In this document: positions 8,653 through 22,184 of the stretch, piece after piece
Numbering within the stretch: the stretch's first letter is position 1
How the letters are laid out: every line of letters starts with the position of its first letter
Source: a virus
Taxonomy: Duplodnaviria; Heunggongvirae; Uroviricota; Caudoviricetes
Direction: 5' to 3' (one strand)
DNA: 31,155 bases
IMG/VR virus record: IMGVR_UViG_2548876865_000016
Location: 1-31,155 of that record
Notes under the pieces: model-generated
The model's database searches: none
The model's input: the letters and a program-made list of their open reading frames with translations, nothing else
Told to the model about the DNA's origin: nothing
Program-made: the position numbers and the translations under genes

Positions 8653-8980
8653 AGTTAACCTCTGTACCGACAGGGCCGAAATCGTAGGTTTCCGCCGTGA
8701 CATACAACCGCGAAAGGGTTTCTTCGGTGATCAATATGGTGCCGGGGACCAGACGTTCGTCGCTTTCCACCAGTAAGGACAGTTGCGTCAGCACGTCACC
8801 GCGCATTGTCGGGCTGCGCTCACCGATCAGGCGGGTGGTGATACCGCTTTCCAGAATGCTGTGAATAATGTCCTGGGTGATGCTGTCGCGGTTATCGCAA
8901 CGGCGCGGCTCGTTGCCGCTGTCCAGCGTGAAATCGCCGTCAGTGATCAAAAGGTCGATGTATAACGGTTCGGTACTCAT
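8645..8980 (-). CDS. Baseplate wedge protein gpW/gp25-like
   Basis: 111 aa; start overlaps the tape-measure stop; ...GERSPTMRGDVL... resembles the gp25/GPW family core; immediately upstream of the J-like gene. Confidence 0.45.
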   Translation of the reverse strand: MSTEPLYIDLLITDGDFTLDSGNEPRRCDNRDSITQDIIHSILESGITTRLIGERSPTMRGDVLTQLSLLVESDERLVPGTILITEETLSRLYVTAETYDFGPVGTEVNYD

Positions 8981-11073
8981 CCTGCGTTAAGCTCCTGCCA
9001 TTCAGCCAGCTGGGCCGGGGTGATTCCATTGGGGGCGTTGATGTAGGTGTCGCCCCACGATTTACGGTTATCCACAGCGGTTTTGCTGTCGGTTTTAACC
9101 TGACTCATCAGGCCGCCGCGTGGGATGTCTGCATTAATTCGGTTCCCCGTCAGCACGGACGGGCTGTTCAGCTTCGACGAACCTGCAGCACTGTCAGGAA
9201 CGACCGCGTTTGCCGGTGGCGAAACGGTTTTCAGGTCGATGTTGACGCCGGGGATCTTGTTTAACTTCTCAACAATCCAGTTATAGGTAGATGCAAAGGT
9301 ATTTTTGAGGACGTCGAAAAGTTTGCTGAATACCCCGCCGATGGTCTGTGCGAACCCTTCAAAGGTGGCGAGCGGGGAAAGACCGGCAAAGAAATCAACC
9401 ACCACGGCCCAGCCGTCAGTAATGGATTGCCAGACCTGCGCAAACACCTGGCCCACCTGTTCAGCGACTGACATCACCCAGGCAAAAGCCGCCGTATCCA
9501 TGATCGCTGCCGCCAGTTCTTCCCAGTGGGTGACGACATACCAGACCCCCACAGCCAGAAGCGCCAGTCCGGCAATAATCAGGGTGATCGGACTCATCAG
9601 GAATTGCATTGCAGCCCCGGCAAACATGGTCGCCGCACCGTAAACCCGCATGGCAATGGCCCCGGCCTTTAACGCGATATTCCATGCAGCAAGCGCGATG
9701 CGACAGACGCCCGTCCACAGCGCCAGCAATTTTGACTGGATCCATAATGCGGCCAGACCGATGCGCGTCGTCAGCAGGGACGGACGCAACAGGTTGAGCG
9801 TCCATAACAGGAGTTTCCATGCACCGCCCAGCACTTTTGCGATTGCGGCCAGCCCCATCATGGTGAAGCCAAAGCCCCCCATCACGATATTGACCGCCGC
9901 CCCGGCCAGCCCGAAGGACAGCACGCCCAGGGTGATGTAACCCAGCCAGCGGGCAATATTCGGGAACATATCCAGCCAGCGGGCAAATTTTGTCCCCACG
10001 TCGGCAATACGGTTCATCAGCGGTGACAGAATAGGGATCAGCGTGTTACCAATCGCCACGCGAATGGCAAAGAATGTCGCTTTGATACGCTCCCACGGCT
10101 CGGCCATTCGTGCGGCCATTTCCTGGGCGCGTTTCATCCCGTCGTTTCGGCCCAGCTCGGTGATACTGCGATTTAATTTATCCTGCTGGCCGTACAGCTT
10201 TTTGATAACGTCAGCACCGCCACCGAACGCGGCGTCCAGCGCCTGTTGTGCCTTGACGTTCCCTTCAATGCTCTGCCCGTATTTACTCTGGAGTTTTTGC
10301 AGAATGTCGCCCATCGGCAGCATTTTGCCGGTGGCATCGACAAAGCTCATACCCAGCTTTTCAGCGGCAGCCGGGGCGCTGCGTAAAAACTGCTCGTAGA
10401 TCCCGCTGGCCTCAGTACCCAGCGTGCGCGAAAGCGTACCCAGGACGGCGAACTGTTCATCCAGGCTGACGCCAAAGTCAGCACCGGCACTTTTCGTCCC
10501 CTCGATAAGCTCCTGCATGGTCTGCATTTTCACGCCGAAGTTTTGCACCATGTACGCGGTTTTCCCTGCCAGCTCTTCGGCAAAACGCACATGGCCCAGA
10601 CTGGACAACTCCGCGTTGAAACGTGACGCCATCGCGCCGATGTATTCGCCTGCCTCTTCGCCGCTGGCCTTGACGCCTGCCGCAAGGGTATTGGCCGCGA
10701 TGGTGACGCGGGGCAGGTCCAGATCGGACAGGCCCGCCATTGCACCTTTCATCGCGTAGCTTGACCGGACCACATCAACGGCCCCTTTGCCGTAGCGCAT
10801 ACTGAATCGCATAGCTTCGCCGGACAGACGCTTCAGCGCGTCCTCTGCCACGCCTTTGGAACCCACTTCTGCAAGTGCGGCGTTCATCTCATATGCCGGA
10901 CCCACCACGCCCGCGATGGACTGCGCCACGCCCCAGACAGCCGCCGCACCGATCCCGATTTTTGTAAAAGATGCCTGCGATTTTTCAGCAAAGCCGGACA
11001 GCGAAGACTGGGCCGTTTTTAATGGCCGCGTCAGCTTATCGATCAGGCTCAGGGTAAAATCCAGGTGGCTCAT
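8977..11073 (-). CDS. Tail tape measure protein
   Basis: 698 aa, Ala/Gly-rich with internal hydrophobic segments; directly downstream of the chaperone gene and its frameshift extension. Confidence 0.85.
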   Translation of the reverse strand: MSHLDFTLSLIDKLTRPLKTAQSSLSGFAEKSQASFTKIGIGAAAVWGVAQSIAGVVGPAYEMNAALAEVGSKGVAEDALKRLSGEAMRFSMRYGKGAVDVVRSSYAMKGAMAGLSDLDLPRVTIAANTLAAGVKASGEEAGEYIGAMASRFNAELSSLGHVRFAEELAGKTAYMVQNFGVKMQTMQELIEGTKSAGADFGVSLDEQFAVLGTLSRTLGTEASGIYEQFLRSAPAAAEKLGMSFVDATGKMLPMGDILQKLQSKYGQSIEGNVKAQQALDAAFGGGADVIKKLYGQQDKLNRSITELGRNDGMKRAQEMAARMAEPWERIKATFFAIRVAIGNTLIPILSPLMNRIADVGTKFARWLDMFPNIARWLGYITLGVLSFGLAGAAVNIVMGGFGFTMMGLAAIAKVLGGAWKLLLWTLNLLRPSLLTTRIGLAALWIQSKLLALWTGVCRIALAAWNIALKAGAIAMRVYGAATMFAGAAMQFLMSPITLIIAGLALLAVGVWYVVTHWEELAAAIMDTAAFAWVMSVAEQVGQVFAQVWQSITDGWAVVVDFFAGLSPLATFEGFAQTIGGVFSKLFDVLKNTFASTYNWIVEKLNKIPGVNIDLKTVSPPANAVVPDSAAGSSKLNSPSVLTGNRINADIPRGGLMSQVKTDSKTAVDNRKSWGDTYINAPNGITPAQLAEWQELNAG

Positions 11074-11074
11074 A

Positions 11075-11272
11075 TCAGTTTCCGTTAAATGCGATGGCTA
11101 TCCCTTCCGCCGTCTTGCTGGCGCGGGTCTGGGCAAAATACTCGTCCAGCCACAGGGCGCGGGCGATGCTTTCTTCGTCGTCGGCTTCGTGCGGGAGGTA
11201 GTAGCGGCGCAGGGCAAGGTATTGCTCAAGCGCATTCTTGCGAATGGCCGCCACCCGCGCCGTCAGTTTTTT
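11075..11272 (-). CDS. -1 frame extension of the tail assembly chaperone (E+E' / G-GT-like fusion segment); includes slippery heptamer A_AAA_AAC at 11266-11272
   Basis: Minus-strand reading GAA GTA AAA AAC TGA; after a -1 slip the frame stays open for 62 codons (LTARVAAIRKNALEQYL...AFNGN) and ends at TGA 11075-11077, 1 nt before the tape-measure ATG. Confidence 0.5.
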   Translation of the reverse strand, partial: KKLTARVAAIRKNALEQYLALRRYYLPHEADDEESIARALWLDEYFAQTRASKTAEGIAIAFNGN

Positions 11273-11532
11273 ACTTCGATCTCAAGTTTGGGGGAGTAAA
11301 TCTCGTTAACCTTCTCGACGATCTGCATTTCGCAACCCGGATAATCTTCCATCAGCTTGTTGAGCGACTCTTTACACTCGGCATCAACAATGCGGCCCAG
11401 ATACGTCACCATAGGGGCAACCTTATTGGTCATGGTCATTTCGTTAAGCAGGTTGTTAAACGCGGTTTTATTCGGCTCAAAGCTCAGATTTACGCCCGCC
11501 ACGGTCATGGCGATTTTTTTCGGTTTACTCAT
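11263..11532 (-). CDS. Tail assembly chaperone (gpE / lambda gpG-like), zero-frame product
   Basis: 89 aa immediately upstream of the tape measure gene; canonical slippery site at its last codons. Confidence 0.65.
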   Translation of the reverse strand: MSKPKKIAMTVAGVNLSFEPNKTAFNNLLNEMTMTNKVAPMVTYLGRIVDAECKESLNKLMEDYPGCEMQIVEKVNEIYSPKLEIEVKN

Positions 11533-11825
11533 TGTGCTAATTCCTTACGTTGTCGAATGATGCCCACCAAGGCGTTATGTCGGGCGGCGCAGTCGGTATA
11601 CATCTGCCGGTAGGCTGTCAGCGCCGCGTCAAAGTCATTTCCGGTCGGTCCGGCCAGACGTGGCAGCGTGACCGGGCAAAGTGTCAGCTGGTTTTCCTGA
11701 TAATTCTCGTTCGGCTTGATCTGCACTTTCGTTGAACAACCGGACGTAATCATCAGAAGCGCAAACGTTGCTAAAAACCGGCTTAATGATTTCTGTGCGA
11801 ATAACCCGTTCCGTGTGCCTTTCAT
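11529..11825 (-). CDS. o-spanin (Rz1 / LysC-like outer-membrane lipoprotein)
   Basis: 98 aa; signal peptide with lipobox-like ...LLMITSG|C; Pro-containing mature part; starts out of frame inside the i-spanin gene and extends past it (overlapped-spanin architecture). Confidence 0.5.
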   Translation of the reverse strand: MKGTRNGLFAQKSLSRFLATFALLMITSGCSTKVQIKPNENYQENQLTLCPVTLPRLAGPTGNDFDAALTAYRQMYTDCAARHNALVGIIRQRKELAQ

Positions 11826-12018
11826 TGGCTTTTAGCCCCGCGAGTTTTGCTTCCAGCGCTTCGCCAGACTGTTGCGTCACTTCAACGACAATCTGGCGTG
11901 TTTGTTCTGCCGCTTCACTGGCAGCGAGTTGCAGCTTTGCGTCGTGCCAGTCATGCGCCTGCCAGCCCGCTGACATTGCAGCGACCAGAATCAGCAAAAG
12001 ACCCAGCAAATTGCGCAT
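11635..12018 (-). CDS. i-spanin (Rz / LysB-like)
   Basis: 127 aa; N-terminal transmembrane segment (LLGLLLILVAAMSAGW) followed by charged helical region; downstream of endolysin. Confidence 0.55.
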   Translation of the reverse strand: MRNLLGLLLILVAAMSAGWQAHDWHDAKLQLAASEAAEQTRQIVVEVTQQSGEALEAKLAGLKANERHTERVIRTEIIKPVFSNVCASDDYVRLFNESADQAERELSGKPADTLPGHAATSGRTDRK

Positions 12019-12658: not shown

Positions 12659-13114
12659 TCAGCCTTTCAAATCGCGAGTGTCGCGGGCTGACAGGTACGG
12701 CACGCCGTCAATCGCGACAAAGTCCGGGCTTGTCACCATGAATTTAATTTTCTTCGTGGTTTTGCTGGCCTCGTTGGGGTTGATGTTGACGATGTCGGAC
12801 AGCGTCGGAACGCAGCCAAACACCTCGATTTTTTCTTCGTCGTCCCCGGCGTTGGCGTAGAACAAAAAGTCCTTTGCCGGAATGGATCGCCAGGAACCTG
12901 CGGCACGGGCCACGGCGGTAAACTTTTTAAAGTTCAGGGAGTCGACTTCGACTTCCACATCCGCTGAAACTGACCCTTTCGTGTGGCCGTTCGGGATGCC
13001 ACGCGACTGCGCAACGGCGCTGTTATCCGTAATGGTGACGGTGGCGTTTTCGACGTGAATCATGATGCTGTCGTAGTTCACATCGAACGATCCACCGCTG
13101 ATACGTTCAGTCAT
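12659..13114 (-). CDS. Putative tail tube protein
   Basis: 151 aa, directly downstream of the putative sheath gene; size and position typical of a contractile-tail tube subunit. Confidence 0.5.
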   Translation of the reverse strand: MTERISGGSFDVNYDSIMIHVENATVTITDNSAVAQSRGIPNGHTKGSVSADVEVEVDSLNFKKFTAVARAAGSWRSIPAKDFLFYANAGDDEEKIEVFGCVPTLSDIVNINPNEASKTTKKIKFMVTSPDFVAIDGVPYLSARDTRDLKG

Positions 13115-13117
13115 TGA

Positions 13118-14260
13118 TTAGCTCTCCAGTGAGGTGTCCAGTTCGATGCTGACGCTGATTTCTTTCGCGCTCTCATACGGTCGAACCACAAGGTAAATCT
13201 GCACCGCTTCGCTACTGGTCCAGGTGATGGTGATGTCGCCGTCCTTTGGTGGCTTCACTTCGCCCGGAAATTCGACGCCATTGATCTGGGTTGAAATCGC
13301 CATTTCGCGCAGCGGCTTGCCGAAATAGGTTTCATGCGCGGCGATGCTGCCCGGTGTGCTGTTCAGTGAACGATCGGCAATTTTTGGGATTGCACGCAGA
13401 CGGACGCGGCGGGAGGCTTTATCAACCACGCGCACGTTTTCAATCACCTGATAATCACCGCCTTCAACGTCCAGGGTGCGACCGTCAGCCCAGTAGATGC
13501 CGTCATAATCGTGATACCACATCGGCACGCTGTAGCGGTTCGCCTGCAAGGACTGCAACACGGCCAGATCAATTTCGGCCCCCGTCCCGTCGACCGGCAG
13601 GCCGTCGCTCCCCAGCGCGGTGACTGCGCCGGTTGCGACGCGGGCGGGGCTGTCTGCCACCGTCACCGAACGGTTACACAGGCGACCGACCAGGACGCCG
13701 GGTTCGTTACCCCACAGACGCGGGACCAGTTGCACTCCAGGCGATGCAATACCGTCCTGGAGTTCAGCCAGGCGCGTCACATAGTCGCTCCACGCTTCGT
13801 CCTTTTCCGGCCCGCCCACAGCAAGGGCAAACCAGATAAAACGCCCAAAACTGGCCTGTAAGGTGACGCGCATTTCCGTTGCGCGGTTAATGGTGGCTGC
13901 GTCGGCGGTATCAAATGCCAGGACAACCCCTTCCACGGATGCCACGCTCTGGGCCTGTTTGACCGCGTTCATCCAGTCTTCGTCTGGTTTGTAGCCCTCG
14001 GCTCCCTTGTCTGGCTCTGCCAGCACATGCACGTAAGCAAACCAGTTCTGACCGGCGTTATTGGCTGCTGCGGCCACCATATTTTTTAACGGGCTGTCTT
14101 TGTCGCCCAGAGCTTTAACCAGATCGCTGCCGGTATTAAGCGACTGGGTTTTCCCGATGTTAGTGTCGCCGTAACCCACAAAGAGGATGACGCGCTCGAC
14201 GTCGTTCGTTGTGCCGTTGAAGCGGTTTTTCTGACTGACGTTGACTGTAGGCCAGGTCAT
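13118..14260 (-). CDS. Putative tail sheath protein
   Basis: 380 aa; sits between the tail-completion genes and the tube gene; size comparable to P2 FI. Assignment is positional. Confidence 0.5.
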   Translation of the reverse strand: MTWPTVNVSQKNRFNGTTNDVERVILFVGYGDTNIGKTQSLNTGSDLVKALGDKDSPLKNMVAAAANNAGQNWFAYVHVLAEPDKGAEGYKPDEDWMNAVKQAQSVASVEGVVLAFDTADAATINRATEMRVTLQASFGRFIWFALAVGGPEKDEAWSDYVTRLAELQDGIASPGVQLVPRLWGNEPGVLVGRLCNRSVTVADSPARVATGAVTALGSDGLPVDGTGAEIDLAVLQSLQANRYSVPMWYHDYDGIYWADGRTLDVEGGDYQVIENVRVVDKASRRVRLRAIPKIADRSLNSTPGSIAAHETYFGKPLREMAISTQINGVEFPGEVKPPKDGDITITWTSSEAVQIYLVVRPYESAKEISVSIELDTSLES

Positions 14261-18991: not shown

Positions 18992-20803
18992 ATGGCTAAA
19001 TATTCCGATGAATTAAAAGAAGCGGCCCGCACGCTTTATATTAAAAGCTGGTCGCCGAAAGATATCGCGCAGGAACTGAATATTCCACCGCGTACAATTT
19101 ACCACTGGGCTGACGCCGGGAAGTGGGCATCACTGCTGCCTGTTGAATCGGTGGAAAATGTCATCACCCGCCGTATCGACCAGCTCTCCCGCCGCGAGAA
19201 AAAAACCGCACTGGAACTGGAGGAGCTGCGCGAACTGATTGCTCACCATGTGAAGCTCATGGCGCAGCGCAACAAGCACGCCGAAAAGCTGGCAGAAATT
19301 CAGGCCCAGAAAGCGGCTTATGATGGTGAAGGGTACTGCCTCAGCAGCGCAGGCGGGGAACCAGGGGAAAGAAAGCGCCGGTATAAGAAAAACGACGTTT
19401 CCGGCATTACACCTGAAATGCTCGACACCTGGGCGCGGGAGCATCTCTTCGAGTACCAGCTGCACTGCCGCGAACATAAAGGCGAAGACTGGCGCTTCAT
19501 TCTGAAAAGCCGACAGGTCGGCATGACCTATTATTTCGCCTGGGAGGCATTCGAAGATGCCGTCATTACCGGTGATAACCAGGTCTTTTTCTCTGCAAGC
19601 CGCGCCCAGTCAGAAATCTTCCGCGAATACATCGTCCAGATCGCCCAGAACCATTTCGGCGTTACACTGACGGGTAAAAATATCCGCCTCAGTAACGGCG
19701 CAATACTGCGCTTTTTATCCACGAACGCCAGCACCGCGCAGGGCTTTAACGGCCACCTGTATGGCGATGAGGTTTTCTGGATCCCGAAATTCACGCGCCT
19801 GCACGAAGTTGCCAGCGCAATGGCGACACATAACAAATACCGGACGACCTACTTTTCGACGCCCAGCGCGAAAACACACCAGGCTTACCCGGTCTGGACT
19901 GGCGAAGCCTGGCGCGGGGACGACCCGAAACGCAAAGGTGTGACGTTCCCGAAAGAAGACGAAATGCGCCAGGGCATTCTCTGCCCGGACCAGATCTGGC
20001 GCTACATCATCACGATGGAAGACGCTATCAAAGGCGGCCTCGGGGCGCTTGTCGATATTGAACGGCTGCGCAACAAATACAGCCCGACCGCGTTTGCCAT
20101 GCTCTACATGTGCCAGTTTGTTGACAGTAAGGACGCGGTGTTCAAGTTCTCCGCGCTTGTCGGCTGCGAAGTGGACCGGGCCACATGGGGCGACTTTGAT
20201 CTGACCGCTGCGCGGCCCTTTGGCAATCGCGAAGTATGGGCAGGTTTTGACCCGTCCCGCTCCGGCGACAACTCCACCTTTGTGTTAATCGCGCCCCCAA
20301 TCGAGGACGGCGAGCGCTTCCGCGTGCTGGCCGTCTGGCAATGGCAGGGCTTTAACTTTAGCTGGCAGGCTGACCAGATTAAGCAGCTTATGCGACGCTT
20401 TAACATTACCTACATCGGGATCGATACAACCGGCATTGGTAAAGGCGTTTATGACCTGGTCAGTAAGTTTGCACCGCGCGAAGCCACGCCCATTCTTTAC
20501 AGCGTCGAAAGTAAAAACCGCCTGGTCATGAAGATGATCGACGTCGTCGAACGCAAGCGCATCGAATGGGCAAAAGATGCCGTAGACGAAACGAACAAAG
20601 AGCGCGTCGAAATACCGGCCAGTTTTATGGCTATCCGGCGCACCACAACCAACAGCGGCAACGCGCTAACGTTTGTTGCCGAACGCTCGGACGCGACCGG
20701 CCACGCAGATGTTTTCTTCGCTATCTCGCACGCCGTAATTAACGAACCTATTGATCACGAATATGACCGCCCATCGGGCTGGCACTTTGGGAATGCAGCA
20801 TGA
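18992..20803 (+). CDS. P: Terminase large (ATPase) subunit, gpP-like
   Basis: 603 aa (P2 gpP ~590 aa); precedes the portal gene with an overlapping stop/start. Confidence 0.85.
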   Translation: MAKYSDELKEAARTLYIKSWSPKDIAQELNIPPRTIYHWADAGKWASLLPVESVENVITRRIDQLSRREKKTALELEELRELIAHHVKLMAQRNKHAEKLAEIQAQKAAYDGEGYCLSSAGGEPGERKRRYKKNDVSGITPEMLDTWAREHLFEYQLHCREHKGEDWRFILKSRQVGMTYYFAWEAFEDAVITGDNQVFFSASRAQSEIFREYIVQIAQNHFGVTLTGKNIRLSNGAILRFLSTNASTAQGFNGHLYGDEVFWIPKFTRLHEVASAMATHNKYRTTYFSTPSAKTHQAYPVWTGEAWRGDDPKRKGVTFPKEDEMRQGILCPDQIWRYIITMEDAIKGGLGALVDIERLRNKYSPTAFAMLYMCQFVDSKDAVFKFSALVGCEVDRATWGDFDLTAARPFGNREVWAGFDPSRSGDNSTFVLIAPPIEDGERFRVLAVWQWQGFNFSWQADQIKQLMRRFNITYIGIDTTGIGKGVYDLVSKFAPREATPILYSVESKNRLVMKMIDVVERKRIEWAKDAVDETNKERVEIPASFMAIRRTTTNSGNALTFVAERSDATGHADVFFAISHAVINEPIDHEYDRPSGWHFGNAA

Positions 20804-21861
20804 CAAAGAAACAGCGTAATAATAAAAAATTCAGGTCCATGACCGGCAACAAGGTTGAAACCTTCACGCCAGGGCGCGGAAGCGTGATCACCTTTGGCGA
20901 ACCAGAACCCATCCTGACGACCGGCACGGATTATCACAATATCTGGTATGACAATGAGTATGACCACTGGCGACTCCCGATTGATCGCCTGGCGCTGGCC
21001 CAGCTGCCGAACCTTAACGGCCAGCACGGCGGGGTACTGTATGCGCGGCGCAATATGGTGGCCGGTGGCTATATCGGCGGCGGCCTGACGCCTGACCAGG
21101 TCGAACAGGCCGTCTTTGATTACCTGCTGTTTGGTGACGTCGCTATCCTGAAAATTCGTAATATGTTCGGGGAGGTGATCGACCTGCTGCCGCTGCCGTC
21201 GCTGTATCTGCGCTGCCGGAAAGACGGCTCTTTTGCTGTACTGCAGGAAGGGCCGGCGCTTATCTATGACCCGGAAGACATCGTCTTTTTTAAAATGTAC
21301 GACCCGCGCCAGCAGGTTTACGGCCTGCCTGACTATATCGGCGGCATCCATTCGGTGTTACTCAACAGTGAGGCAACCATATTCCGGCGCCGTTACTACA
21401 ACAACGGGGCGCACATGGGCTTTATCCTCTATACCAGCGATCCCAATCTCACGCTGGAAATGGAAAACGAAATCAAAGACAAGATCGCCCAGTCCAAAGG
21501 GCTGGGTAACTTCCGCAATATGTTTATCAACATCCCGAAGGGCGACCCGGAAGGGGTTAAAATCATGCCAGTGGGCGAGGTCAGCGCAAAGGATGAATTT
21601 GCCAACATCAAAGGGATCACCGCACAGGACATCTTTACCGCCCACCGTTTCCCCGCTGGCCTGGCGGGTATCATCCCGACCAACGGCGCGGTAATGGGCA
21701 ACCCGGAAACCGCCCGCACAACCTATCGCAAGGATGAAGTTATCCCACTGCAGCGCAAGCTAATGAACGGCGTCAACAATGACCCGGAGATCCCCGCACA
21801 TTTGCACCTGGTTTTTGATGTAGATATCCCGGCAATTACCGCCGAAAAGGGCGAAAAATGA
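20800..21861 (+). CDS. Q: Portal protein (gpQ-like)
   Basis: 353 aa (P2 gpQ ~344 aa); downstream of terminase large subunit. Confidence 0.85.
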   Translation: MTKKQRNNKKFRSMTGNKVETFTPGRGSVITFGEPEPILTTGTDYHNIWYDNEYDHWRLPIDRLALAQLPNLNGQHGGVLYARRNMVAGGYIGGGLTPDQVEQAVFDYLLFGDVAILKIRNMFGEVIDLLPLPSLYLRCRKDGSFAVLQEGPALIYDPEDIVFFKMYDPRQQVYGLPDYIGGIHSVLLNSEATIFRRRYYNNGAHMGFILYTSDPNLTLEMENEIKDKIAQSKGLGNFRNMFINIPKGDPEGVKIMPVGEVSAKDEFANIKGITAQDIFTAHRFPAGLAGIIPTNGAVMGNPETARTTYRKDEVIPLQRKLMNGVNNDPEIPAHLHLVFDVDIPAITAEKGEK

Positions 21862-22184
21862 GCGCAGTTAAGTTAAAATCATCCCCATTGTTAGCAATGG
21901 CGTGCGGGATGGTGAACATGCGAGTTTTTAAAATTAAATGTCCTGAATGCGGCTCACCGGCCATCATTCGTAAATCTGACTGGAAAGACAAAAAACTGGC
22001 TGATTTATACTGCGCCTGCACGGAAGTTGAATGCGGCCACACCTTTGTTTTTAACGCTCAGTTTTCTCATACCCTCAGCCCCAGCGGGCTGACCGGAAAC
22101 AAGCTGGTTAAATTTCTGATTGACCGGCTCAAGCCGGAAGAACGTCAGTTCGCGCTGGACCTGCTCAACGGCCAGACGGCATAA
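21858..22184 (+). CDS. ogr: Ogr/Delta-family zinc-finger late transcription activator (alternative ATG starts at 21897, 21909, 21918)
   Basis: CPEC...(21 aa)...YCACTEVECGHTF matches the Ogr pattern CxxC...YxxCxxxxCxxTF; the first start overlaps the portal stop (ATGA). Confidence 0.6.
   Translation: MSAVKLKSSPLLAMACGMVNMRVFKIKCPECGSPAIIRKSDWKDKKLADLYCACTEVECGHTFVFNAQFSHTLSPSGLTGNKLVKFLIDRLKPEERQFALDLLNGQTA

What the first reader, a model, noticed from the sequence alone, without database searches (positions are those of the whole stretch)
11075..11532. Programmed -1 frameshift at A_AAA_AAC fusing the tail chaperone to a 62-codon extension that ends at the tape-measure start
The chaperone ORF ends ...GAA GTA AAA AAC TGA (minus strand), placing the canonical slippery heptamer in the zero frame at its last two codons. 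The -1 frame is open for 62 codons and stops 1 nt before the tape-measure ATG. This is the arrangement of lambda G/GT and P2 E/E+E', and it supports both the chaperone and tape-measure calls.
Basis: seen in the sequence. Interest (0 to 1): 0.4.

Follow-up and report, generated by a model that had tools for sequence, protein, structure and literature searches.

The report
Tail chaperone programmed -1 frameshift
This prophage makes a second, longer version of its tail-assembly chaperone by letting a few ribosomes slip back one base at A_AAA_AAC, the ordinary trick of long-tailed phages, though public records of this phage group annotate it as two separate genes.

Summary
On the minus strand an 89-codon ORF (11532..11263) ends GTA AAA AAC TGA. 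This puts A_AAA_AAC (11272..11266) in the zero frame at its last two sense codons. The -1 frame is open only from 11281. It runs 63 sense codons to TGA (11077..11075), 1 nt before the tape-measure ATG (11073).

The ORF belongs to Pfam Phage_TAC_10, and its predicted fold matches solved tail chaperones. The -1 ORF belongs to Pfam DUF6890.

In 146 distinct related sequences from Enterobacterales, Pasteurellaceae and Vibrio phages, including HP1 and K139, the ORF always ends NTA AAA AAC + stop. The -1 ORF is 60-64 codons long (one 44-codon outlier) and shows codon periodicity in the -1 frame. Within the enterobacterial set, 29 of 90 sequences have no start codon in its first 30 codons.

More distant relatives carry other shift motifs at the same spot: A_AAA_AAA, A_AAA_AAG, G_GGA_AAG and A_AAG.

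It is a new member of a well-known kind. No public record I read annotates the fusion, and DUF6890 is best read as the frameshift extension. No family-wide stimulatory RNA structure was found. No experiment on this lineage was found.

The parts
11263..11532 (-). Tail assembly chaperone ORF (89 aa, 10.1 kDa), zero frame, stop codon included
11542..11546 (-). Shine-Dalgarno-like AAGGA upstream of the chaperone ATG. The ATG overlaps the stop of the preceding ORF (ATGA).
   Evidence: Read directly from the sequence.
11282..11284 (-). Stop codon (TGA) in the -1 frame. It marks the 5' limit of the window in which a -1 shift can give the long product.
   Evidence: In relatives this overlap window is 10-40 nt.
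11266..11272 (-). Slippery heptamer A_AAA_AAC in the phase X_XXY_YYZ, covering the last two sense codons (Lys88, Asn89)
   Evidence: Invariant in 90 + 56 distinct related sequences and in HP1, K139 and vB_YenM_324. The preceding codon is always NTA: GTA, ATA, CTA or TTA.
11263..11265 (-). Zero-frame stop TGA immediately 3' of the heptamer
   Evidence: The position is fixed in all HP1-like relatives while its identity varies (TGA 48, TAA 29, TAG 13 among the 90).
11075..11266 (-). -1 frame extension: 63 sense codons (LTARV...AFNGN, 7.2 kDa) plus stop TGA 11077-11075. The predicted fusion protein is 152 aa, 17.2 kDa.
   Evidence: Pfam PF21830 DUF6890, E 2.3e-22. Gapless protein alignment across relatives. 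Codon-position entropy 0.72/0.52/1.44 in the -1 frame. AlphaFold model with four helices, pLDDT 91.7. Masses.
11252..11254 (-). GTG used as the start of a separate 'hypothetical protein' in the phage SI7 records. Probably not a real start.
   Evidence: Annotation. No Shine-Dalgarno sequence upstream. GTG is present at this codon in only about a third of distinct relatives, and 29 of 90 have no ATG/GTG/TTG in the first 30 codons.
11205..11262 (-). Candidate G+C-rich stem (CGGCGCGGG...CCCUGCGCCG with inner hairpins) starting 3 nt after the heptamer. Its role is not established.
   Evidence: MFE -28.1 kcal/mol. It is the most stable 60-nt window in the chaperone-to-tape-measure region. However, z is only -0.65 to -1.6 against shuffles, there is no family consensus structure, and only 63.5% of cells pair.
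8977..11073 (-). Tape measure protein gene (698 aa). Its ATG lies 1 nt after the stop of the -1 extension.
   Evidence: PF10145, TIGR01760, phrog_28. In relatives the junction is TGAnATG, TAATG or ATGA.
12659..13114 (-). Tail tube gene (context)
   Evidence: PF10772 Phage_HP1_Orf24, phrog_1182 'tail protein'. The equivalent gene is annotated 'tail tube protein' in vB_YenM_324.
13118..14260 (-). Tail sheath gene (context)
   Evidence: PF10758, phrog_907 'tail sheath'.

Best explanation
This is the tail assembly chaperone gene pair of an HP1-like (Peduoviridae, Irrigatiovirus-type) P2-family prophage, expressed by programmed -1 ribosomal frameshifting.

Most ribosomes translate the 89-codon ORF and terminate at TGA, giving the 10-kDa chaperone. 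A minority slip back one base, with tRNA-Lys on AAA and tRNA-Asn on AAC re-pairing to AAA AAA. They then read CUG and 62 further codons in the -1 frame. The product is a 152-aa, 17.2-kDa fusion (...EIEVKN-LTARV...) whose C-terminal four-helix domain is the family now filed as DUF6890.

By analogy with lambda gpG/gpGT, the shared N-terminal part would coat the tape measure protein. The extension would recruit the tube subunit, so that the tail polymerises around the tape measure at a fixed chaperone-to-fusion ratio. Neither protein would end up in the virion.

Shown here:
- the sequence arrangement;
- the family memberships;
- the chaperone-like predicted fold;
- conservation of the heptamer, its phase and the -1 ORF;
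- the lack of an independent start for the -1 ORF.

Inferred:
- that the shift is ribosomal, and its (probably low) efficiency;
- the roles of the two domains.
For: - Anatomy.
- Identity: PF10963 for the ORF, PF21830 for the -1 ORF, PF10145 for the next gene.
- Conservation: 96 of 96 loci end NTA AAA AAC + stop, and every complete one has a 63-64-codon -1 ORF. The same holds in HP1, K139 and vB_YenM_324 and in 56 more distinct sequences.
- Selection on nucleotides rather than amino acids: the codon before AAA is GTA, ATA, CTA or TTA, always ending in A. Those codons make up only 13.7%, 8.3%, 3.3% and 17.2% of Val, Ile and Leu codons in these loci. AAC is always used although AAT is 52% of Asn codons, and AAT would preserve both reading frames.
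- No own start: 29 of 90 distinct sequences have no ATG/GTG/TTG in the first 30 codons of the -1 ORF. Leu1 and Arg4, upstream of the GTG used in annotation, are invariant.
- Inconsistent database calls: database 'DUF6890 proteins' have at least six different called starts and lengths of 45-63 aa.
- Coding signal: entropy periodicity 0.72/0.52/1.44 in the -1 frame.
- Narrow shift window: it is 10 nt in many relatives, which is essentially the heptamer plus three bases.
- The signal changes while the arrangement stays: distant PF10963 members have A_AAA_AAA, G_GGA_AAG, A_AAA_AAG or A_AAG at the homologous codons. Each is followed by a DUF6890-like -1 ORF that ends at the tape measure start.
- Precedent: A_AAA_AAC is a low-efficiency heptamer in E. 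coli, yet a proven programmed shift site in an IS cluster that has no established stimulator (PMC4066793). Low-level G-T type frameshifting is widely conserved among long-tailed phages (PMC5009743).
Against: - No experimental evidence for this lineage was found in the searchable literature.
- No public record I read (SI7, vB_YenM_324, HP1, K139, one RefSeq E. coli genome) annotates a joined CDS.
- No family-wide stimulatory RNA structure was found, and the heptamer is a weak one in E. coli. The efficiency could therefore be very low.
- The heptamer and a long -1 ORF are not improbable in this window on their own.
- The functional roles of the two domains rest on analogy with lambda. The extension shows no detectable sequence or fold similarity to P2 E' or to any viral model.
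Confidence: 0.9

Rival explanations
1. There are two independent genes. The -1 ORF is translated from its own start (GTG 11254), giving a free 59-aa DUF6890 protein, as annotated in phage SI7 and in RefSeq genomes.
For: Public annotation treats it this way. A GTG exists at codon 5 of the -1 ORF in the window and in about a third of distinct relatives.
Against: - The start is not conserved: 29 of 90 sequences have no ATG/GTG/TTG in the first 30 codons.
- There is no Shine-Dalgarno sequence upstream of the GTG.
- Residues upstream of the GTG (Leu1, Arg4) are invariant.
- Gene callers pick at least six different starts.
- HP1 and vB_YenM_324 leave the ORF uncalled altogether.
- This reading cannot explain the invariant in-phase heptamer and the A-ending rare codons.
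Confidence: 0.04
2. The mechanism is transcriptional slippage. RNA polymerase inserts one extra A in the A6 run, and the altered mRNA encodes an in-frame fusion (...EVKK-LTAR...).
For: The shift site is a homopolymeric A run. Insertion of one A would reach the same frame. Nothing done here can distinguish RNA-level from ribosome-level slippage directly.
Against: - From my own knowledge of documented bacterial cases, efficient slippage uses runs of about 9 or more A or T. Here the run is exactly A6 in every sequence and never longer.
- Its phase relative to the codons is invariant, as are the flanking T and C. RNA polymerase would not require that.
- Relatives use G_GGA_AAG and A_AAG, which are ribosomal shift motifs and not homopolymer runs.
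Confidence: 0.04
3. It is an artefact or chance: either a sequencing error in the A-run splits one real 152-codon gene, or a heptamer happens to sit next to an open frame.
For: Homopolymer runs are error-prone. The heptamer count in the window is at the chance level.
Against: - The same A6 run and the same frame change recur in more than 150 independently assembled loci and in phage isolates sequenced by different groups.
- No in-frame chaperone-DUF6890 fusion of about 150 aa exists among the database hits.
- The -1 ORF is under protein-coding selection.
Confidence: 0.01

Closest known systems
Phage lambda gpG / gpGT tail assembly chaperone frameshift (Levin et al. 1993; Xu et al. 2004, 2013, 2014, as summarised in PMC5009743)
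   Same: - Two overlapping ORFs lie just upstream of the tape measure gene.
- A -1 shift on an in-frame heptamer near the end of the first ORF gives a minor fusion product.
- A low-efficiency site is used.
- The predicted chaperone fold matches the spiral-forming chaperone structures (HK97 gp13).
   Different: - There is no sequence similarity.
- The heptamer is A_AAA_AAC rather than G_GGA_AAG.
- It sits flush against the stop codon.
- The phage has a contractile tail, with sheath and tube genes.
- A lysis cassette (holin, endolysin, spanins) lies between the tube gene and the chaperone.
- Protein ratio and function are untested here.
Phage P2 gpE / gpE+E' (annotated in NC_001895)
   Same: - Same virus family (Peduoviridae).
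- Same order: sheath, tube, chaperone, -1 extension, tape measure.
- The extension stop abuts or overlaps the tape measure start.
- Similar sizes: 91 + 51 aa in P2 against 89 + 63 aa here.
   Different: - There is no detectable sequence relationship (hhalign probability 0.3% and 0.1%).
- The P2 heptamer is T_TTT_TTG, 18 nt before the E stop.
- P2's frameshift is annotated and, according to PMC5009743, 2-3 times more efficient than lambda's.
IS-element -1 frameshift on A_AAA_AAC (cluster A_AAA_AAC_1 in Sharma et al. 2014; I believe this is IS1 insA-insB', from my own knowledge)
   Same: It uses the identical heptamer. The site is of low efficiency in E. coli yet is used for programmed shifting, and it has no established stimulator.
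   Different: The proteins and the biology are unrelated (transposase control against virion assembly).
Pfam families Phage_TAC_10 (PF10963) and DUF6890 (PF21830) in HP1, HP2, K139, phiO18P, ESSI-2 and vB_YenM_324
   Same: The window's two ORFs are clear members of these families. HP1 orf26 and K139 orf30 end with the same heptamer plus stop.
   Different: These families are catalogued as separate proteins. No record I read or Pfam/PHROG name I saw links them by a frameshift.

Membership tests
Tail assembly chaperone pair with programmed frameshift (lambda G/GT type) | Two overlapping ORFs lie between the major tail (tube) gene and the tape measure gene, with the second ORF in the -1 frame. 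| tested here: met
   Gene order is sheath 13118-14260, tube 12659-13114, lysis cassette, chaperone 11263-11532, -1 ORF 11075-11266, tape measure 8977-11073. The lysis cassette lying between tube and chaperone is a feature of the HP1 group.
Tail assembly chaperone pair with programmed frameshift (lambda G/GT type) | A slippery sequence lies in the zero frame inside the overlap. | tested here: met
   A_AAA_AAC 11272-11266 lies within the 16-nt overlap. It is the only in-frame X_XXY_YYZ in the overlap in 95 of 96 relatives.
Tail assembly chaperone pair with programmed frameshift (lambda G/GT type) | The arrangement is conserved in relatives independently of sequence similarity, and the downstream ORF has no start of its own. 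| tested here: met
   146 distinct sequences were examined. 29 of 90 have no start codon in the first 30 codons. Distant members use other shift motifs at the same place.
Tail assembly chaperone pair with programmed frameshift (lambda G/GT type) | The chaperone has the fold of solved tail assembly chaperones (HK97 gp13, YqbN, Rbstp2171). | tested here: met
Tail assembly chaperone pair with programmed frameshift (lambda G/GT type) | Two proteins are made in a fixed ratio; both are needed for tail assembly and both are absent from virions. | not testable with these tools
   This needs protein analysis and genetics. No publication on this lineage was found.
Pfam PF10963 Phage_TAC_10 | The score against the family model is above the curated cutoff. 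| tested here: met
   103.3 bits against a cutoff of 25.7, covering residues 7-89 and model positions 1-82 of 82.
Pfam PF21830 DUF6890 | The score against the family model is above the curated cutoff. | tested here: met
   78.9 bits against a cutoff of 23.6, covering residues 19-62 of the -1 translation and the full model 1-44.
P2 gpE / E+E' protein family | Detectable sequence homology to gpE and to E'. | tested here: not met
   hhalign of the chaperone alignment against gpE gives probability 0.3%. The extension alignment against E' gives 0.1%. The relationship is one of arrangement only.
Canonical -1 programmed frameshift cassette with a 3' stimulator (IS911, IS3 or dnaX type) | A conserved downstream hairpin or pseudoknot, or an upstream Shine-Dalgarno-like element, at a fixed spacing. 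| tested here: inconclusive
   - Against: there is no consensus structure over the family. The window's own fold pairs in only 63.5% of cells. The window's z-score is -0.65 to -1.6. GGAG upstream is present only in some relatives.
- For: the 60 nt 3' of the heptamer are among the most stable local windows in most clades. Clade-specific hairpins show a little covariation.

The most novel reading that the evidence does not exclude
In the HP1-like lineage the recoding signal may be more than the heptamer. On this reading, a deliberately weak heptamer (A_AAA_AAC) is kept flush against the stop codon. The slip would then happen while the ribosome waits for a release factor (a 'shifty stop'), helped by clade-specific structures just downstream. 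The chaperone-to-fusion ratio would be set by competition between termination and slippage, and so could respond to release-factor supply or to the host's growth state.

The evidence does not exclude this. The stop is adjacent in all 146 HP1-like sequences even though its identity changes. The region 3' of the site is unusually stable in most clades.

Two things count against it. Wider family members place the stop 1-7 codons further on. The fixed position can also be explained by constraint, because losing the stop would add a 57-codon junk tail to every chaperone molecule.
Probability: 0.15. Interest if true: 0.4.

Novelty: new member of a known kind. Interest (0 to 1): 0.25.

Why it matters
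- Annotation: it corrects the annotation of a widespread prophage group. 'DUF6890 family protein' and the 'hypothetical protein' next to the chaperone gene in Salmonella, E. coli and Enterobacter, and the unannotated gap at that position in HP1, are best read as the frameshift extension of the chaperone and not as a separate gene.
- Gene calls: it anchors the chaperone and tape-measure calls in this window.
- A comparative series: it offers a natural series of one recoding site that uses six different shift motifs at the same codons across one protein family. That series is useful for benchmarking frameshift predictors and for asking how efficiency is tuned.
- Scope: beyond this it is the expected, textbook arrangement for a long-tailed phage.

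Tried and rejected
- Family-wide RNA stimulator: RNAalifold on 24 non-redundant sequences predicted no pairs. The window's own minimum-energy fold is not kept across the family. I therefore dropped a conserved-stimulator claim and kept only 'clade-specific, unproven'.
- Rfam and tRNA scans of the window found nothing.
- A sequence search of the chaperone-extension profile against PDB chains found nothing below E 0.6.
- A fold search of the extension model against viral predicted structures found nothing significant.
- Homology to P2 gpE and E' was tested by profile comparison and rejected.
The two parts were modelled separately instead.
- Literature searches for a description of this frameshift in HP1, K139 or Irrigatiovirus, or for DUF6890, found none.
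- I could not check whether Xu et al. 2004 listed HP1. That paper is not held, and the PRFect supplement that reuses its list is not held either.
- I considered using the heptamer count in the window as evidence, and rejected it because the count is at the chance level.

Full report
**What is in the sequence.**

On the minus strand an ORF starts at ATG 11532, preceded by AAGGA. Its ATG overlaps the stop of the preceding ORF as ATGA. The ORF ends ...GAA GTA AAA AAC TGA, with the stop at 11265-11263 (89 aa).

The heptamer A_AAA_AAC occupies 11272-11266 in the phase X_XXY_YYZ. The -1 frame carries a stop at 11284-11282, so it overlaps the ORF by only about 16 nt. It then stays open for 63 sense codons, from CUG at 11266 to AAC at 11078, and ends in TGA at 11077-11075. 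One base later comes the ATG (11073) of a 698-aa ORF. The count of 62 codons holds only if the CUG that contains the heptamer's last base is left out.

**Is it more than chance?**

Taken alone, no. AAAAAAC occurs 11 times in the window against 9.7 expected. Three of 38 other long ORFs also have an in-frame X_XXY_YYZ in their -1 overlap. Long -1 ORFs after a stop are common in this tightly packed genome because the next gene often lies in that frame. The case rests on identity and on comparison.

**Identity.**

- The window is 97% identical over this region to Salmonella phages SI7, SW3 and SW5 (Peduoviridae, Irrigatiovirus).
- It carries a full P2/HP1-type module. This includes terminase, portal, GPO scaffold, P2-type capsid, sheath, HP1 Orf24-type tube, baseplate J, tail fibre, gpA replication protein, Ogr and integrase.
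- The 89-aa ORF is Pfam Phage_TAC_10 (103 bits against a cutoff of 25.7).
- The -1 translation is Pfam DUF6890 (78.9 bits against 23.6).
- The next gene is a tape measure protein (PF10145, TIGR01760, phrog_28).
- A published comparison treats all three as tail assembly chaperones (PMC9603447).
- The extension folds confidently as four helices (pLDDT 91.7) but matches nothing in the viral structure library.

**Comparative test.**

Profile-guided scans gave 16 genomic and 80 viral loci with 49-100% protein identity.

- All 96 end NTA AAA AAC followed directly by TGA, TAA or TAG.
- In every complete one the -1 ORF has 63-64 codons and stops at or over the tape measure start (TGAnATG, TAATG or ATGA).
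- HP1 orf26, K139 orf30 and Yersinia phage vB_YenM_324 do the same.
- So do 56 further distinct HP1-like and K139-like sequences. One outlier, L120, has a 44-codon -1 ORF.

The conservation acts on nucleotides, not just on amino acids.

- The codon before AAA is GTA (66), ATA (15), CTA (6) or TTA (3), always ending in A. These codons are only 13.7%, 8.3%, 3.3% and 17.2% of their amino acids' codons in the same loci.
- AAC is invariant although AAT is 52% of Asn codons there, and AAT would preserve both the Asn and the -1 frame Leu.
- These counts are not phylogenetically independent. Even so, at least three codon switches kept the A.

The -1 ORF aligns without gaps. It shows codon-position entropy of 0.72/0.52/1.44, as strong as the chaperone's own 0.90/0.70/1.40.

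The -1 ORF has no conserved start.

- 29 of 90 distinct sequences have no ATG, GTG or TTG in its first 30 codons.
- Leu1 and Arg4, upstream of the GTG that annotators use, are invariant.
- Database entries for 'DUF6890 proteins' are 45-63 aa long with at least six different called starts.
- No in-frame chaperone-DUF6890 fusion of about 150 aa exists.

In many relatives the overlap is only 10 nt, so the shift can occur only on the heptamer.

**Wider family.**

A profile search of 1.84 billion representatives found 199 relatives. Most end in V/I/L-K-K, -K-N, -G-K or -G-E, either at the C-terminus or up to 8 residues before it. I looked up the DNA for six of them; five gave usable flanks (the L179 contig ends just after the gene):

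| Loci | Last codons of the chaperone ORF | Shift motif and position |
|---|---|---|
| L180, L181 | GTA AAA AAA TAG | A_AAA_AAA, flush with the stop |
| L182 | GTG GGA AAG TAG | G_GGA_AAG (lambda's heptamer), flush with the stop |
| L187, L188 | ATA AAA AAG + 7 codons | A_AAA_AAG, 21 nt before the stop |
| L185, L186 | GTA AAG GAA TAA | A_AAG tetramer, one codon before the stop |
| L184 | GTG GGG GAG TAG | run of five G, non-canonical |

Each is followed by a DUF6890-like -1 ORF that ends at the tape measure start. The shift signal therefore changes while the arrangement stays the same. That is what a selected frameshift predicts, and what chance or independent initiation does not.

**Mechanism.**

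- Shown: the heptamer, its phase, the adjacent stop, the conserved -1 coding region and the absence of an independent start.
- Inferred: tandem -1 slippage of tRNA-Lys and tRNA-Asn (AAA AAC to AAA AAA), then decoding of CUG. This gives a 152-aa, 17.2-kDa fusion alongside the 10.1-kDa chaperone.

Sharma et al. 2014 class A_AA.A_AA.C as a low-efficiency heptamer in E. coli that IS elements nevertheless use. Their cluster A_AAA_AAC_1 is a proven case with no established stimulator (PMC4066793). A low rate fits the roughly 30:1 ratio of gpG to gpGT in lambda (PMC5009743).

**Stimulators: inconclusive.**

- Across the family RNAalifold predicts nothing.
- The window's own fold is kept in only 63.5% of cells.
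- The window's z-scores are modest, -0.65 to -1.6.
- On the other hand, the 60 nt after the heptamer are the most stable such window in the window's chaperone-to-tape-measure region. They are within the most stable 11% of local windows in 20 of 34 non-redundant sequences.
- Different clades have different hairpins, two of them with a compensatory change.
- The adjacent stop may add a pause, but in wider family members it lies 1-7 codons further on. Its fixed position can also be explained by constraint, because the zero frame would otherwise run on for 57 codons.

**Function.**

The functional reading is by analogy with lambda, as reviewed in PMC5009743. The shared N-terminal domain would bind the tape measure protein and the extension would recruit the tube protein. 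It was not tested here.

**Rivals.**

- Independent initiation at GTG 11254, as annotated in SI7 and, from an internal ATG, in RefSeq E. coli. It fails on start-codon conservation, on the lack of a Shine-Dalgarno sequence and on the conserved residues upstream of the GTG.
- Transcriptional slippage. It is unlikely on an invariant, in-phase A6 run, and relatives use motifs that are not homopolymers. Only RNA sequencing or the junction peptide can exclude it.
- Sequencing error. It is excluded because the same frame change recurs in more than 150 independent assemblies.

**Comparison with what is known, and novelty.**

This works like lambda G/GT and P2 E/E+E'. It meets every defining feature of that system that could be tested here.

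It is not a sequence relative of P2 gpE or E' (hhalign 0.3% and 0.1%). In P2 the heptamer T_TTT_TTG lies 18 nt before the E stop.

The general phenomenon is textbook knowledge. I found no description of it for the HP1, K139 or Irrigatiovirus lineage, nor for DUF6890. No record I read joins the two ORFs. I could not check whether Xu et al. 2004 already listed HP1.

**Verdict.** This is a new member of a known kind and of low to moderate interest. Its main value is in correcting annotation.

Noticed in passing
window 11529-11825 (-), overlapping 11635-12018 (-): A 98-codon ORF has a lipoprotein-type signal (FALLMITSGC) and a weak Pfam LysC/Rz1 match (E 0.007, below the cutoff). It overlaps the Rz-like spanin gene in another frame and ends in ATGA with the chaperone start. 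It looks like the o-spanin. The SI7 records leave it unannotated, while vB_YenM_324 annotates an O-spanin at the same place.
   Followed up: partly
L101 2204-2782 (K139 orf30, NC_003313 22798-23376): The annotated 192-aa ORF starts with a lipoprotein signal (LLLSGC) and runs in one frame into the chaperone domain. Either the o-spanin and the chaperone are merged by annotation, or they are truly co-linear in K139.
   Followed up: no
L105-L160 (HP1-like viral contigs), alignment A5 columns 35-59: A conserved hairpin, GCAAUGGnUU...AAnCUAUUGC, lies 27 nt after the heptamer. One pair switches between UA and CG in three sequences. It is too far downstream to be a classical frameshift stimulator.
   Followed up: partly
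L069, L070, L084, L087 (enterobacterial viral contigs), 8 nt 3' of the heptamer: A 9-bp hairpin, CGAGUCCAU...AUGGACUCG, gives z-scores of -2.4 to -5.4 against shuffles. L087 shows one compensatory change (CAU/AUG to CGU/ACG). It is absent from the window's own clade.
   Followed up: partly
L184 1752-1764: A distant family member ends GTG GGG GAG TAG. It has a run of five G and no canonical X_XXY_YYZ, yet a DUF6890-like -1 ORF follows. This may be a non-canonical shift site.
   Followed up: no
proteins P0098, P0159, P0127, P0171 (representatives): Some family members carry two chaperone domains in tandem in one ORF of 182-211 aa. Each domain ends in a K-K or similar motif.
   Followed up: no
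L179 1-1761: On a 12.6-kb metagenome contig, a Phage_TAC_10 gene lies about 750 nt downstream of cas1-cas2. The contig ends just after the gene.
   Followed up: no
window 21846-21861 (+): The portal gene (20800-21861) has an in-frame A_AAG_GGC 6 nt before its stop, and the Ogr/Delta-like gene (21858-22184) lies in the -1 frame. That gene has its own ATG in an ATGA overlap, so this is probably chance.
   Followed up: no
L120 (HP1-like contig): This is the only locus with a shortened -1 ORF (44 codons, with a divergent tail after ...NLAR). It is probably an indel in that assembly or a decaying prophage.
   Followed up: no
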